Translations under genes and position numbers: made by a program
Notes under the pieces: generated by a model
The model's database searches: none
The model's input: only the letters and a program-made list of their open reading frames with translations
Told to the model about the DNA's origin: nothing
Part shown: positions 4,195 to 6,958 of the stretch, in pieces
Numbering within the stretch: the stretch's first letter is position 1
How the letters are laid out: each line of letters begins with the position of its first letter
Origin: a virus
DNA length: 64,000 bases
Direction: 5' to 3' (one strand)
IMG/VR virus record: IMGVR_UViG_3300034062_006900
Coordinates: 1-64,000 of that record

Positions 4195-4479
4195 ATGGAA
4201 AAAGATTTGGACATATTAGAAACAATCCTCAGGGACCAAAATTACGCAACAGAATACATTGCAATGATTTTACAACACTTGGTTAAGGAATTAGGACAAT
4301 CCTCACTTGAGAGATTTACCCCGAATTTTATTTACTCAGCATTAGCATTTGAACTTGGAAGAGCTAAATCAAAGGAGATTGCAGAATATTTCGAGGAGTT
4401 CAAAGAAAAAGGTAGTTACAGAACAACTCTTCAAAAAGCAATGGAAGATTCTCCATCATTTTCGAAATACACAAAATAA
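4195..4479 (+). CDS. hypothetical protein
   Basis: ORF with TATTTAT at 4181-4187. Confidence 0.65.
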   Translation: MEKDLDILETILRDQNYATEYIAMILQHLVKELGQSSLERFTPNFIYSALAFELGRAKSKEIAEYFEEFKEKGSYRTTLQKAMEDSPSFSKYTK

Positions 4480-4510
4480 AAAACCCCATCCGTAGAAACG
4501 AACAGGGTTT
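4479..4510 (-). terminator. terminator of the large ncRNA
   Basis: Minus strand AAACCCTGTTCG-TTTCTA-CGGATGGGGTTT followed by a T tract. Confidence 0.65.
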
Positions 4511-4518
4511 GGCAAAAT

Positions 4519-5326
4519 AGGTTGAGAATACACCATCTTGTGAGAGTCTTTACAGGAGATTATTTGTTTCCTCCGATTTCCACTTCCTTTTGAGAAGTAA
4601 CTCCCAGTCACGGTCAATTAGATTAACCAATCCTTAAGTCGTAATATACTCTATTTTTACTCATCACTCTTCTAGGTTGCCACCCAAACTCATCCTTGCG
4701 GGATTAGAGAACTTCCAAAACAATCGTATCGGGCTTGGGACCCTTTACGGCCATGAACAACTCATGACTAAGTAGTGACCTGTCTACCACGACTGACGAA
4801 CACTTTTCCTTTTAGTTTTAATGATTTGTTAGAATCCTTATTTTAACAAAGGGTTTGATTTGTGGATGTTAGATGTAGCGGTTCGTCAACGCAGCCATCC
4901 CATCTTTTGAACGAGACGATACTGAACTACACCTTGAAGTCTCCCGACCTCCATACTTTGAGTTTACTTCATAACTGACCACTTGGTAGAGGTCTGATAA
5001 GGAGAACAACAGCACCATCTGTTTGAACTCTTACCTTTCGGTTTTAAGTCTACTCTAATATTGAACTCCGCAATTGTATAGTTGGATGACCATACTTCTC
5101 ACAACAGCTCTACGAGTTATTCTTATTGGTGTTCCCACCTCAACCAAACGACCCACATCGCTCGGTCACCCAACCACTTTCTCTACAGTGTCACCCTCAA
5201 TACTCAAGGTTAGATGATATCCCGCTTGTCTACTCGAGCTCCGTTACCGAAGCCGCAACCGTTCCAATCAAGAACAAGTCACTTTATACTACTTTCATAG
5301 TTTATTTATGGACTATAGACCGCCCA
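4519..5326 (-). ncRNA. large (~810 nt) structured ncRNA, GOLLD-like
   Basis: No credible ORF; GC above flanks; many GNRA-capped stems on minus strand (ACC-GAAA-GGT, ATCCC-GCAA-GGAT, GAGGTC-GGGA-GACTTC, CTTCG-GTAA-CGGAG), two CAAAAG-loop hairpins, G-U pairs favour minus strand; next to a tRNA, with own promoter and terminator. Family assignment rests on size, context and recalled motifs only. Confidence 0.65.
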
Positions 5327-5489
5327 ATATCTTTATCAGTCATTTCAAACTCAACCCGAAGGTCTCATCTTCAACTCCTGAACGGATAATATTTTTATTC
5401 AAAGAACTTTAAAATTAATGAAGAAAAGAGGAAACTTTACGACCCACCGAAGTAGGAACCTTTACTACCCCTTTTCTTCATTTGTCTTA

Positions 5490-5521
5490 CAAAATTAAGA
5501 ATGTTTTGGGAAACAGTCAAA
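5490..5521 (-). promoter_or_regulatory. Bacteroidota-type promoter P3 (drives large ncRNA)
   Basis: TTTG-N20-TAATTTTG followed by ACAAATG leader. Confidence 0.75.
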
Positions 5522-5646
5522 TTTTTGTAGAACTTTTTTTTTGAAGAACAATACAACAAATAATTCTACGGACCCCCTACTCTTAATAGGACAGGTTTAT
5601 TTGGTTATTCATTCAAAGAACTAAACGACTCTCGTCATTTGTTTTT

Positions 5647-5678
5647 CAAAGATAGGATGAATTTTTCAATTCGTCAAA
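5647..5678 (-). promoter_or_regulatory. Bacteroidota-type promoter P2
   Basis: TTTG-N20-TATCTTTG followed by ACAAATG leader. Confidence 0.75.
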
Positions 5679-5736
5679 TCTTTTTTAAAAAAAATAGGGA
5701 ACCTCGATTTTACGACCGCAGTCAACCTATTCTTAG

Positions 5737-5808
5737 TTGCGAAGGATGGATTCGAACCACCGACCTAAAGGTTATGAGCCTTCCGAGCTACCACTGCTCT
5801 ACCTCGCG
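5737..5808 (-). tRNA. tRNA-Met(CAT), initiator-like
   Basis: CGCGAGGTAGAGCAGTGGTAGCTCGGAAGGCTCATAACCTTTAGGTCGGTGGTTCGAATCCATCCTTCGCAA; cloverleaf, GTTCGAATC T-loop, C1:A72 mismatch; CCA not encoded. Confidence 0.92.
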
Positions 5809-5971
5809 ATATATCTTTATGATTACAAACCCACTTCCCCACGGTCACCTATCCACGTCATGCGCTGGTTGAACCAGCGGGTGTAATCAATATTTTTAAG
5901 AACTTATTTAGAAAATAAGTCCCACAAGCTTATGAATCTCTCGATAAAACACTTGTGGGACATTTGTTTCA

Positions 5972-6003
5972 CAAAGATAAGTAGAATTTTTGGTTCAGTC
6001 AAA
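5972..6003 (-). promoter_or_regulatory. Bacteroidota-type promoter P1 (drives tRNA)
   Basis: TTTG-N20-TATCTTTG followed by ACAAATG leader. Confidence 0.75.
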
Positions 6004-6083
6004 TCTTTTTTGAAACTTTTGGGTTTGGGGATATTCTGTCTTCTCAGACAGAGACATATAAATATCTACATATTTACCAAAAG

Positions 6084-6179
6084 TCATTCATCATCCAAAT
6101 TATCTATTTGTCTGTTCATATCAAGAACAGCCAAAACAACAAAGAGGAATAATATTACTACTACAAAACCTAAAATCAT
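6084..6179 (-). CDS. small single-TM protein (31 aa)
   Basis: Manual translation MILGFVVVILFLFVVLAVLDMNRQIDNLDDE; ATGA overlap with Nudix stop. Confidence 0.5.
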   Translation of the reverse strand: MILGFVVVILFLFVVLAVLDMNRQIDNLDDE

Positions 6180-6595
6180 TTTAATATAATTTCTGCAAGT
6201 TTAAAAAGATATTCACCCGAAGTTTCTTCCTTAATCTCTTCGATTGGAAAATATTTGGCGTCGGTATGTTCTTCACCATCAATCGCGTTAACCAAGTCAG
6301 GCATAATCTCATCATCAACATTTAGAAGATAAACATACATTAAACCTTTAACCTTTTTACCATCTCTTGTATGACGAGGAATTAACCCAACAAATTGGAG
6401 TTCTTGGTCATCGATGTTAATTGCGGTTTCTTCAAAGAATTCTCTTCGAGCACCCTCTTGAGTAGTTTCTCCATCCTCAAGTTTACCGCCAGGTATGGAC
6501 CACATTCCAGGGAATGAACCCAAGTTATTTCTCTTACATAGAAGAAGTTTGTTTTTACATTTTACGGCTACGCCAACGTATCTTTTTTTATCCAT
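6176..6595 (-). CDS. Nudix hydrolase
   Basis: Nudix box GGKLEDGETTQEGARREFFEETAI. Confidence 0.92.
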   Translation of the reverse strand: MDKKRYVGVAVKCKNKLLLCKRNNLGSFPGMWSIPGGKLEDGETTQEGARREFFEETAINIDDQELQFVGLIPRHTRDGKKVKGLMYVYLLNVDDEIMPDLVNAIDGEEHTDAKYFPIEEIKEETSGEYLFKLAEIILK

Positions 6596-6604
6596 AGTAT
6601 TTAT

Positions 6605-6958
6605 ATGTATATGAAGGTTAAAATTAATCAAAATATTTTTAATATCAAAACTTTAATCGATAAAAAATCCCAATCTATTGGAATGATGGGTAAGACTTTC
6701 GATTCTACGTTTGATGGTCTTCTTTTTCTTATGGGTGGAAAGAAACAATGTTTTTGGATGAAGAACTGTGTCATTCCTTTAGATATAATCATAATCAAAA
6801 ACAACGTCATCGTTAATATCCACCACAGTTGTCCCCCTTGTAATGAAGACCCTTGTCCTTCTTATTGTGGTAGAGGTAACATTGTATTAGAATTGGAGGG
6901 TGGAAGTTGTGAAGATTTGAATATCCAACCAGGTGATACAGTTGAATATCTATTCTAA
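6605..6958 (+). CDS. DUF192 family protein
   Basis: GMM...GLLF...FWMKNCVIPLDII...VLEL..G pattern. Confidence 0.85.
   Translation: MYMKVKINQNIFNIKTLIDKKSQSIGMMGKTFDSTFDGLLFLMGGKKQCFWMKNCVIPLDIIIIKNNVIVNIHHSCPPCNEDPCPSYCGRGNIVLELEGGSCEDLNIQPGDTVEYLF

What the first reader, a model, noticed from the sequence alone, without database searches (positions are those of the whole stretch)
4519..5326. ~810-nt highly structured phage ncRNA (GOLLD-like) with its own promoter and terminator
Seen: an ORF-free, GC-enriched 0.8 kb in an otherwise gene-packed genome. Read on the minus strand it has many GNRA-capped stems, two CAAAAG-loop hairpins and G-U wobbles, and is bracketed by a promoter (5490-5521) and a terminator (4479-4510). 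Known: GOLLD RNAs are giant ~800-nt structured RNAs of unknown function found in phages and lake metagenomes next to tRNAs. Inference: this is a GOLLD member or a new giant RNA class carried by a Bacteroidota jumbo phage.
Basis: partly seen in the sequence, partly recalled or inferred. Interest (0 to 1): 0.85.

Follow-up and report, generated by a model that had tools for sequence, protein, structure and literature searches.

The report
GOLLD giant RNA in jumbo phage
The gene-free 0.8 kb is a genuine member of the known GOLLD family of giant phage RNAs, which assemble into RNA-only cages; it is abundant in river RNA samples and sits behind a ribosomal-RNA-style leader, but what GOLLD RNAs do remains unknown.

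Summary
Confirmed, and already known in kind. Window 4519-5328 (minus strand) is a full-length GOLLD RNA.

- **3' half:** 4519-4934 matches Rfam RF02032 end to end (320.6 bits, cut-off 150).
- **5' half:** 4935-5328 is conserved in more than 100 IMG/VR phage loci. It shows strong covariation: 88 of 119 pairs have compensatory changes. It is the same 5' domain type as GOLLD env-38, whose 14-mer nanocage structure is solved.
- **Expression:** contigs from four river and lake metatranscriptomes cover 4520 to about 5361 at high depth. Both flanks are silent.
- **Flanking signals:** The terminator (4481-4510) is real.
- **Leader:** between promoter and RNA lie a strong hairpin and GTTCTTTGAA. That word is the boxA I found upstream of 16S rRNA in 13 of 19 sampled Bacteroidota-phylum genomes. 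A second promoter-hairpin-boxA unit lies upstream, and the neighbouring initiator-like tRNA-Met has a third.
- **Earlier work:** this scan has already reported the same rRNA-style leader before phage GOLLD on other DNA. I reached it independently here.

The biological function remains unknown. It is a new member of a known kind, of moderate-to-low interest.

The parts
4519..4934 (-). GOLLD 3' domain, the universally conserved half
   Evidence: Rfam RF02032 matches model positions 1-416 of 416 at 320.6 bits (cut-off 150), E 5e-91. Covarying helices in the 63-sequence alignment.
4935..5328 (-). GOLLD 5' domain, the cap domain in the env-38 cage
   Evidence: nhmmer hits lie contiguous with the 3' domain in all 127 loci then held (the window's own L001 and huge-phage loci L002-L003 included). 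It has 119 pairs in 25 helices. 95.5% of cells are paired, against 36-42% in slid controls. 88 pairs show changes on both sides. Motifs are shared with the env-38 construct sequence.
4803..4862 (-). A-rich variable linker. It corresponds by position to the disordered linker that faces the cage interior in env-38. No tRNA is embedded here.
   Evidence: It forms an unpaired loop of about 58 nt in the consensus fold. Its sequence varies among homologues. No tRNA is found inside it. Linker description is from PMC12286853.
4471..4510 (-). Intrinsic terminator: 13-bp hairpin (4481-4510) plus U-run
   Evidence: Terminator scan. Fold dG -16.6 kcal/mol, z -4.2. Metatranscriptome contigs stop at 4521 and 4541, with zero depth in 4200-4519.
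5327..5336 (-). ATAAAGATAT motif abutting the GOLLD core. The same 10-mer precedes tRNA-Met at 5811-5820.
   Evidence: 4 matches in the window against 0.6 expected. It is conserved as GATAAAGATAtt in most homologues.
5342..5392 (-). Variable spacer with a UUCG hairpin. It is absent in relatives whose boxA abuts the core.
   Evidence: Upstream comparison. The fold is not better than shuffles, z -0.7. A metatranscriptome variant lacks it (joint 5335 to 5417).
5398..5407 (-). boxA-like word GTTCTTTGAA of the proximal (P2) leader
   Evidence: The box is present upstream of 56 of 63 non-redundant GOLLD loci. The same word, GTTCTT[TA][GA]A, lies upstream of 16S rRNA in 13 of 19 sampled Bacteroidota-phylum genomes. 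It matches the gamma-proteobacterial consensus GYTCTTTAANA at 10 of 11 positions.
5418..5482 (-). Leader hairpin in the boxB position
   Evidence: dG -26.8 kcal/mol, z -6.6, with 0 of 200 shuffles folding as well.
5490..5521 (-). Proximal promoter (P2), Bacteroidota type: TTTG-N20-TAATTTTG
5612..5678 (-). Distal unit (P1): promoter 5647-5678 (TTTG...TATCTTTG), small hairpin 5623-5640, boxA GTTCTTTGAA 5612-5621
5736..5808 (-). tRNA-Met(CAU) with a C1xA72 mismatch (initiator-like), on the same strand upstream of GOLLD
   Evidence: ARAGORN and Rfam, 62.5 bits. Acceptor ends read.
5894..6003 (-). The tRNA's own unit: promoter 5972-6003, hairpin, box GTTCTTAAAA 5894-5903

Best explanation
**Identity.** Window 4519-5328 (minus strand) is the gene for a GOLLD RNA of about 810 nt. 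This is a known family of giant, ornate phage RNAs. The gene lies in a fragment of an uncultured jumbo phage of about 300 kb, probably infecting Bacteroidota.

**Shown here**
- Family membership of both halves.
- A conserved, covarying fold.
- Presence of exactly this stretch, and not its flanks, in environmental RNA libraries.
- Host-type promoter motifs and an intrinsic terminator.

**Inferred**
1. Host RNA polymerase starts at two tandem Bacteroidota-type promoters (5647-5678 and 5490-5521).
2. Each promoter is followed by a hairpin and the word GTTCTTTGAA. This is the same boxA word found before 16S rRNA in the sampled genomes of the presumed host phylum (Bacteroidota). The elongating polymerase is therefore probably converted by NusB/NusE and partners into the termination-resistant rRNA-type complex. 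That would let it finish an 0.8-kb untranslated, heavily folded RNA.
3. The leader is trimmed off, leaving an RNA that runs from about 5330-5360 to 4519.
4. By homology in both domains to GOLLD env-38 (PDB 9MEE), the RNA self-assembles into a closed homo-14-mer nanocage, with its A-rich linker (4803-4862) facing inward.

**Function.** The biological role is not established for any GOLLD RNA. My best guess, at about 1 in 3, is a translation-linked role during infection, such as holding or shielding tRNA or ribosome components. The grounds are its recurrent pairing with tRNA genes, especially initiator-like tRNA-Met.
For: **Identity**
- RF02032 matches full length at 320.6 bits, E 5e-91.
- The 5' half gives nhmmer hits contiguous with the 3' half in all 127 loci then held, which include the window's own locus and two GenBank huge-phage loci.
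- 102 of these loci are full length. 63 are non-redundant at under 93% identity, with lengths of 781-860 nt.

**Structure**
- 41 consensus helices.
- In the 5' domain, 95.5% of cells are paired against 36-42% when partners are slid.
- 88 of 119 pairs show changes on both sides, against 34-50 when slid.
- The covariation score is 0.545 against 0.08-0.11, and 0 of 500 shuffles reach it.

**Same 5' domain as the solved cage**
- The env-38 construct printed in the supplement of PMC12286853 begins ATGGCCGCTATGGTCG..AAATAAATACGAAAGTAGGATAAAGTG..GGAGCTTGAGTAGGCAAGTGAGATATCA..GAGGGTAACAC.
- It matches window 5328 onward motif for motif.

**Expression**
- 22 metatranscriptome runs hold 30-41% of the words of 4400-5900.
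- Contigs of 4 runs, coded as 4 different studies, cover 4520 to about 5361 at k-mer depths from hundreds to 78,000.
- Depth is zero in 4200-4519 and 5928-6100, and 0-20 over most of the leader and the tRNA.

**Promoter, terminator, leader**
-.

**boxA**
- The box lies upstream of 56 of 63 GOLLD loci at variable distance.
- Exact GTTCTT[TA][GA]A lies upstream of 16S in 13 of 19 sampled genomes of the phylum; a looser form in 17 of 19. The reversed-sequence control gives 2 of 19.
- It matches the published consensus GYTCTTTAANA at 10 of 11 positions.
- A metatranscriptome contig of a relative joins hairpin, boxA and core in one RNA.

**tRNA linkage**
- tRNA-Met is the nearest tRNA in 25 of 46 cases: 17 of 30 upstream and 8 of 16 downstream. 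About 18 of 28 tRNA-Met genes found in these flanks carry a position 1:72 mismatch.
Against: - The RNA evidence comes from assembled contigs. It shows neither strand, true ends nor level. Many laid contigs are 90-95% variants from related phages, so depths sum over a population.
- No host is identified directly. Neighbouring proteins are mostly without family.
- Cage formation is by homology only.
- The comparison with env-38 was made by eye on the first 190 nt or so printed in a supplement, not by an alignment tool.
- boxA function is inferred from sequence identity and position. Nus factor binding is untested.
- GTTCTTTGA-like boxA words also occur in other phyla, so the word alone does not name the host.
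- A distant GOLLD, in Caulobacter phage Ccr34, has no such box upstream. The leader is therefore a trait of this subclass, not of GOLLD as a whole.
- The consensus structure used for pair counts was derived from the same alignment.
Confidence: 0.9

Rival explanations
1. It is a new class of giant structured RNA that only resembles GOLLD.
For: Rfam's model covers only the 3' half, and GOLLD 5' halves are described as variable. A novel 5' domain was therefore conceivable.
Against: The 3' half matches the whole model at twice the cut-off. The 5' half is the common type found in more than 100 phage loci and in env-38 itself.
Confidence: 0.01
2. It is GOLLD, but the GTTCTTTGAA word is not an antitermination signal. 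Instead it would be a conserved piece of the GOLLD precursor, such as a processing site or a partner for a long-range pairing, or a promoter-proximal element of another kind.
For: No Nus binding is shown. The word is followed in many loci by the conserved TAAAGATATT that abuts the core. The same ATAAAGATAT precedes the tRNA, which could point to a shared processing signal. Ccr34 GOLLD lacks the box.
Against: The distance from the core varies from 10 to 105 nt, which argues against a fixed structural role. The word is identical to the one upstream of 16S rRNA in the phylum. The promoter-hairpin-box order mirrors the order in those rrn leaders. The unit also heads a tRNA gene.
Confidence: 0.25
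3. It is a decaying or silent GOLLD copy with no function, and the RNA signal comes from DNA carry-over or from other phages' GOLLDs.
For: Contigs cannot prove transcription of this exact copy. 40 of the 140 contigs laid in run X1 are only 90-95% alike.
Against: 62 of the 140 contigs laid in run X1 are at least 99% identical. Flanks on the same DNA have zero depth, so DNA carry-over is unlikely. All consensus helices are intact in this copy: 223 of 233 pairs are canonical or G-U. The promoter and terminator are intact.
Confidence: 0.03
4. Functional rival: the assembled RNA is not a container but a decoy or sponge. It would soak up a host RNA-binding defence or a ribosome-associated factor on its outer surface.
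For: Ribosome binding in pull-downs is cited in PMC12286853. Abundance in RNA libraries is very high.
Against: Nothing here discriminates between this and the container idea. In other GOLLDs the inward-facing linker sometimes carries a tRNA, which favours an interior role.
Confidence: 0.2

Closest known systems
GOLLD RNA (Rfam RF02032; Weinberg et al. 2009, from memory), in particular env-38, whose 14-mer D7 nanocage was solved (PDB 9MEE; Kretsch et al. 2025, PMC12286853)
   Same: The 3' domain matches the full model. The 5' domain is of the same type. The length is about 810 nt against 833 nt. An A-rich internal linker sits at the same place. The gene lies downstream of a tRNA-Met gene in a phage or environmental context.
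   Different: This copy is about 30% divergent or more. It has no tRNA in the linker. It sits in a fragment of a phage of about 300 kb. Assembly state was not tested.
GOLLD copies in the 635-kb and 642-kb huge phages LR745206 and LR756502 (Al-Shayeb et al. 2020, PMC7162821; GOLLD is not mentioned there)
   Same: Both have full-length GOLLD (287 and 275 bits) with an adjacent tRNA. The 5' domain is 68-74% identical. They belong to the genomes over 634 kb that the paper predicts to replicate in Bacteroidetes.
   Different: Their 5' domain has longer inserts. Their genomes are about twice as large.
Bacterial rrn operon leader: tandem P1/P2 promoters, boxB hairpin, boxA, and the Nus/SuhB antitermination complex
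   Same: Two tandem host-type promoters are each followed by a hairpin and by the word GTTCTTTGA. That word lies 78-140 nt before 16S rRNA in most of the sampled Bacteroidota-phylum genomes that carry it.
   Different: The cargo is a phage non-coding RNA and a tRNA, not rRNA. No boxC or leader-trailer helix was identified. Factor binding is untested.
ROOL RNA (octameric cage)
   Same: It is a large phage-associated RNA near tRNAs that forms an RNA-only cage.
   Different: Its sequence and fold are unrelated. No ROOL hit appears in the window at gathering or permissive thresholds.

Membership tests
GOLLD RNA (RF02032) | Match to the Rfam covariance model of the conserved 3' domain above the gathering score | tested here: met
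   320.6 bits against a cut-off of 150. Model positions 1-416 of 416, E 5e-91, minus strand 4519-4934.
GOLLD RNA (RF02032) | Two-domain architecture of about 800 nt: a less conserved 5' domain directly joined to the 3' domain | tested here: met
   The 5' domain (4935-5328) is contiguous with the 3' domain. The same layout is seen in 102 full-length relatives of 781-860 nt.
GOLLD RNA (RF02032) | Conserved secondary structure supported by covariation in the 5' domain | tested here: met
   88 of 119 pairs show compensatory changes. 95.5% of cells are paired, against about 40% for slid controls. Caveat: the structure was derived from the same alignment.
GOLLD RNA (RF02032) | 5' domain homologous to that of the structurally solved env-38 | tested here: met
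   Motif-by-motif agreement with the construct sequence printed in the supplement of PMC12286853. The comparison was by eye over about 190 nt. The sequence could not be entered into an aligner.
GOLLD RNA (RF02032) | Phage or prophage location near tRNA genes | tested here: met
   IMG/VR virus record. tRNA-Met lies about 400 nt upstream on the same strand. 30 of 60 relatives have an upstream tRNA.
GOLLD RNA (RF02032) | Self-assembly into a homo-oligomeric nanocage (14-mer for env-38) | not testable with these tools
   Inferred from homology only.
GOLLD RNA (RF02032) | Accumulates as a discrete RNA | tested here: inconclusive
   Metatranscriptome contigs cover 4520 to about 5361 only, with silent flanks. 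Contigs give no strand, ends or size.
rrn-type boxA antitermination leader | boxA word matching the rrn boxA found in the sampled genomes of the presumed host phylum (Bacteroidota) | tested here: met
   GTTCTTTGAA lies at 5398-5407 and 5612-5621. GTTCTTTGA lies upstream of 16S in the phylum sample. It matches GYTCTTTAANA at 10 of 11 positions.
rrn-type boxA antitermination leader | Promoter, then hairpin (boxB position), then boxA, with tandem promoters | tested here: met
   The same order is seen in Flavobacteriaceae-family rrn leaders.
rrn-type boxA antitermination leader | NusB-NusE binding and resistance to Rho-dependent termination | not testable with these tools
   No experiment is available. 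No phage NusG was found in the 76.7 kb held.
ROOL RNA | Match to the Rfam ROOL model | tested here: not met
   No hit at the gathering threshold or at E up to 1.
Hatchet ribozyme (RF02678) | Match above the gathering score with conserved core | tested here: not met
   22.4 bits against a cut-off of 51, E 0.16, partial model, at 5342-5446. This spacer is missing in many relatives.

The most novel reading that the evidence does not exclude
In phages of Bacteroidota the GOLLD cage RNA is made as a 'pseudo-rRNA'. The host rRNA antitermination complex, loaded at the copied boxA leader, would do two things. It would shield the 0.8-kb untranslated transcript from Rho, and it would chaperone its co-transcriptional folding and assembly. 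Together with the recurrent initiator-type tRNA-Met neighbour, this would tie GOLLD to a take-over of translation initiation. This scan has already raised the boxA part on other phage DNA. The initiator-tRNA link is the only element I have not seen noted.
Probability: 0.35. Interest if true: 0.55.

Novelty: new member of a known kind. Interest (0 to 1): 0.3.

Why it matters
GOLLD is one of the largest and most elaborate bacterial or phage non-coding RNAs. Its cage structure is solved, but its function is unknown.

This copy adds no new kind of object. It does supply useful handles:
- a clean transcription unit (tandem host promoters, hairpin-boxA leader, terminator) that suggests how such a long untranslated RNA is completed;
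- evidence that the RNA is abundant in river and lake communities;
- a recurrent partnership with an initiator-like tRNA-Met.

These point experiments toward Nus-dependent synthesis and toward translation-related roles in Flavobacteriia-type hosts.

Tried and rejected
- **Weak Rfam hits in the permissive scan.** Hatchet ribozyme (5342-5446, 22 bits, E 0.16), L10 leader and sar RNA are all far below their cut-offs. They lie in non-conserved or terminator sequence, so I treat them as chance.
- **Genome-collection scan.** I scanned genome contigs with the 5'-domain word GAGCTCGAGTANNCAAG to find prophage hosts. All but one are chance matches by nhmmer; the exception is a 272-bp contig in a Clostridium aciditolerans assembly. 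No host information came from it.
- **First boxA regex on rrn leaders.** It found nothing in 9 rrn loci (7 genomes) of the Flavobacteriaceae family. Reading the leaders showed a looser variant there. The exact word appeared in the wider phylum sample.
- **Neighbouring and large proteins.** PHROG and Pfam scans of 19 different proteins gave only a NUDIX hydrolase and a few domains of unknown function. They give no taxonomic or functional help.
- **Phage NusG.** No NusG was found in the 76.7 kb held. The record is only about a quarter of the genome.
- **Literature.** Searches for GOLLD together with boxA, antitermination or jumbo phages found no paper in the held library.
- **Caulobacter phage Ccr34 GOLLD.** No boxA-like word lies upstream.
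- **Not used.** Protein structure and complex tools were not relevant to an RNA gene.

Full report
**What is there**

Read on the minus strand, window 4519-4934 matches the whole Rfam GOLLD model: RF02032, positions 1-416 of 416, 320.6 bits against a gathering score of 150, E about 5e-91. That model covers only the conserved 3' half of GOLLD RNAs. A tRNA-Met(CAU) gene lies upstream on the same strand at 5736-5808.

The stretch has no ORF of 100 aa or more. Its GC is 0.40-0.42, against roughly 0.30-0.38 around it.

**The 5' half**

A blastn search of GenBank phages found only two records, the 635-kb and 642-kb 'huge phages' LR745206 and LR756502. Both matched in the part upstream of the Rfam hit. 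Both carry a full GOLLD (287 and 275 bits) beside tRNAs.

A 17-nt word from this upstream part (GAGCTCGAGTANNCAAG) retrieved more than 119 IMG/VR loci. A second 5'-domain word retrieved a few more. With the window's own locus and the two huge-phage loci, 127 loci were scored. Every one has nhmmer matches to the 5' half with the 3' half directly following, wherever the contig reaches that far.
- 102 loci are full length.
- 63 are non-redundant at under 93% identity, with lengths of 781-860 nt.
- Several sit on contigs of 200-480 kb.

**Fold and covariation**

An RNAalifold consensus on the 63-sequence alignment (A2) gives 41 helices and 233 pairs. For the 5' domain alone (119 pairs, 25 helices), one search gives:

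| Measure | This structure | Partners slid by 1-3 columns |
|---|---|---|
| Cells forming standard pairs | 95.5% | 36-42% |
| Pairs with changes on both sides | 88 | 34-50 |
| Covariation score | 0.545 | 0.08-0.11 |

None of 500 shuffles reaches the observed values. The structure was derived from the same alignment, so these numbers lean its way, but the margin is very large.

**Link to the solved structure**

Kretsch et al. 2025 (PMC12286853) solved GOLLD env-38 (833 nt, found downstream of a Met-tRNA) as a closed homo-14-mer cage with D7 symmetry.
- The 5' domain (residues 1-420) forms the caps.
- The 3' domain (421-833) forms the ring.
- A disordered linker faces inward.

The construct sequence printed in their supplement starts ATGGCCGCTATGGTCG...AAATAAATACGAAAGTAGGATAAAGTG...GGAGCTTGAGTAGGCAAGTGAGATATCA...GAGGGTAACAC. 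This agrees motif for motif with window 5328 onward (ATTGGGCGGTCTATAGTCC...AAATAAACTATGAAAGTAGTATAAAGTG...GGAGCTCGAGTAGACAAGCGGGATATCA...GAGGGTGACAC). The window's RNA therefore has the same 5' domain type, and its structural 5' end is at about 5328.

I made this comparison by eye, because the env-38 sequence could not be entered into a tool. Cage formation by this copy is an inference from homology.

**Expression**

22 river and freshwater metatranscriptome runs hold 30-41% of the sampled words of 4400-5900. GOLLD makes up about 54% of that stretch. I laid contigs of four runs, coded as four different studies, on 4200-6100 at 90% identity or more.
- Depth of hundreds to 78,000 is confined to 4520 to about 5361.
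- Depth is zero in 4200-4519 (the neighbouring ORF and the terminator) and in 5928-6100.
- Depth is 0-20 over most of the leader and the tRNA.
- Contigs end at 4521 or 4541, and at 5334, 5360 or 5361.

The silent flanks argue against DNA carry-over. The limits are real, though. Contigs give no strand, no true ends and no level, and many of them come from 90-95% variants, so the depths sum over a population of related phages.

One contig from a relative joins the leader hairpin to the core through the word AGTTCTTTGAC. In that relative, hairpin, box and core lie on one RNA (tables 5 and 5c).

**Transcription signals**

That pattern occurs 12 times in the window against 3.1 +/- 1.7 expected, with 0 of 100 shuffles reaching 12; 11 of the 12 are on the gene strand.

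*Terminator.* The terminator at 4481-4510 is a 13-bp hairpin plus a U-run, with dG -16.6 kcal/mol and z -4.2.

*Leader.* Between promoter and core lie:
- a strong hairpin at 5418-5482 (dG -26.8 kcal/mol, z -6.6);
- the word GTTCTTTGAA at 5398-5407;
- a variable spacer with a UUCG hairpin;
- ATAAAGATAT abutting the core.

*Further units.* A second unit lies upstream: promoter 5647-5678, small hairpin, and GTTCTTTGAA at 5612-5621. A third heads the tRNA: promoter 5972-6003, hairpin, and GTTCTTAAAA at 5894-5903.

**The box is boxA**

In 56 of 63 non-redundant GOLLD loci the box lies 10-105 nt upstream of the core, usually after a small hairpin and a TAnnTTTG promoter. The variable distance argues against a fixed role inside the GOLLD fold.

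I then fetched 16S rRNA loci from genomes of the family and phylum of a Flavobacteriaceae MAG.
- 17 of 19 genomes with enough upstream sequence carry G[TC]TC[ATC]T[TA][GA]A within 400 nt before 16S.
- 13 of 19 carry exactly GTTCTT[TA][GA]A, mostly GTTCTTTGA at -78 to -140.
- The reversed-sequence control gives 2 of 19.
- Flavobacteriaceae-family leaders show the same promoter-hairpin-box order, sometimes twice.

The gamma-proteobacterial boxA consensus is GYTCTTTAANA (PMC5725501). The phage word matches 10 of 11 positions.

The most economical reading is that this phage, like most of this GOLLD subclass, places its giant RNA and its tRNA behind copies of the rrn leader found in that phylum. 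It would thereby recruit the Nus-dependent, Rho-resistant transcription complex. This is inference; no factor binding has been tested.

The box is not universal to GOLLD. Caulobacter phage Ccr34, whose GOLLD scores 165 bits and has a tRNA-Gly embedded in it, has no such word upstream.

**Prior notes in this scan**

After I had written this idea down, the scan's own notes showed two things.
- Follow-up agents had reported an 'rRNA-style boxA leader before phage GOLLD' on several other phage genomes.

I found no paper in the held library linking GOLLD with boxA.

**Host and genome**

The record is an IMG/VR virus contig of 76,752 bp, judged 26% complete, which implies about 300 kb. Neighbouring proteins are mostly orphan; the only clear neighbour is a NUDIX hydrolase at 6176-6631.

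A Bacteroidota host rests on three indirect lines:
- the promoter type;
- the rrn-like leader;
- kinship of the GOLLD with that of huge phages predicted to replicate in Bacteroidetes.

No direct host link was obtained. The genome-collection scan was swamped by chance matches.

**Function**

No GOLLD function is known. Published ideas are encapsulation of tRNAs, ribosomes or other macromolecules.

Two things here bear on this. First, this copy has a plain A-rich linker without a tRNA. Second, among the 63 relatives, tRNA-Met(CAU) is the nearest tRNA in 25 of 46 cases, 17 of 30 upstream and 8 of 16 directly (2-11 nt) downstream. About 18 of 28 tRNA-Met genes found in these flanks start with C opposite A or U at position 72, the mismatch typical of bacterial initiator tRNA. 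This includes the window's own tRNA.

I therefore lean, weakly, toward a translation-linked role. Nothing here tests it.

**Verdict**

This is a new member of a known family, in a setting that this scan has already described elsewhere: a large Bacteroidota-type phage, an rrn-like leader, and a tRNA-Met neighbour. Interest is moderate to low. The main open question, what the cage does, is unchanged.

Noticed in passing
window 5736-5808 (minus); relatives in loci L056, L120, L104, L049, L108, L065, L099, L027 and others: The tRNA-Met(CAU) beside GOLLD has a C1xA72 mismatch and A11:U24, which are initiator-tRNA hallmarks. It has only two of the three G:C pairs usual in the initiator anticodon stem. 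Among 63 related GOLLD loci, tRNA-Met is the nearest tRNA in 25 of 46 cases, and about 18 of 28 tRNA-Met genes found in these flanks share the position 1:72 mismatch.
   Followed up: partly
window 5811-5820 and 5327-5336 (minus): The same 10-mer, ATAAAGATAT, lies directly before both the tRNA-Met 5' end and the GOLLD core. It occurs 4 times in the window against 0.6 expected. It may be a shared processing signal or part of the duplicated leader cassette.
   Followed up: partly
window 5530-5611 (minus): About 80 nt lie between the distal boxA and the proximal promoter, with no match to any RNA family. They are covered only at depth of about 7-19 in one metatranscriptome. They may be just a spacer between the tandem promoters.
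   Followed up: no
window 5820-5893 (minus): About 75 nt lie between the tRNA unit's box and the tRNA. They include a GC-rich hairpin (CCGCTGGTTCAACCAGCG). Function is unknown.
   Followed up: no
L198 (NZ_JAEEGB010000114.1, a 272-bp contig of a Clostridium aciditolerans DSM 17425 assembly): A 272-bp contig in an isolate assembly matches the GOLLD 5' domain of this Bacteroidota-phage subclass (nhmmer E 4e-55). It is probably a stray or contaminant fragment rather than a Clostridium gene.
   Followed up: no
L260 (Caulobacter phage Ccr34, KY555147 102300-104600): The GOLLD of this cultured 216-kb phage has a tRNA-Gly inside the Rfam match. A permuted tmRNA lies about 500 nt upstream on the other strand. 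No boxA-like word precedes the GOLLD.
   Followed up: partly
window 6176-6631 (minus): A NUDIX hydrolase gene (phrog_1198, E 4e-25) is the nearest recognisable protein gene upstream of the RNA cassette.
   Followed up: no
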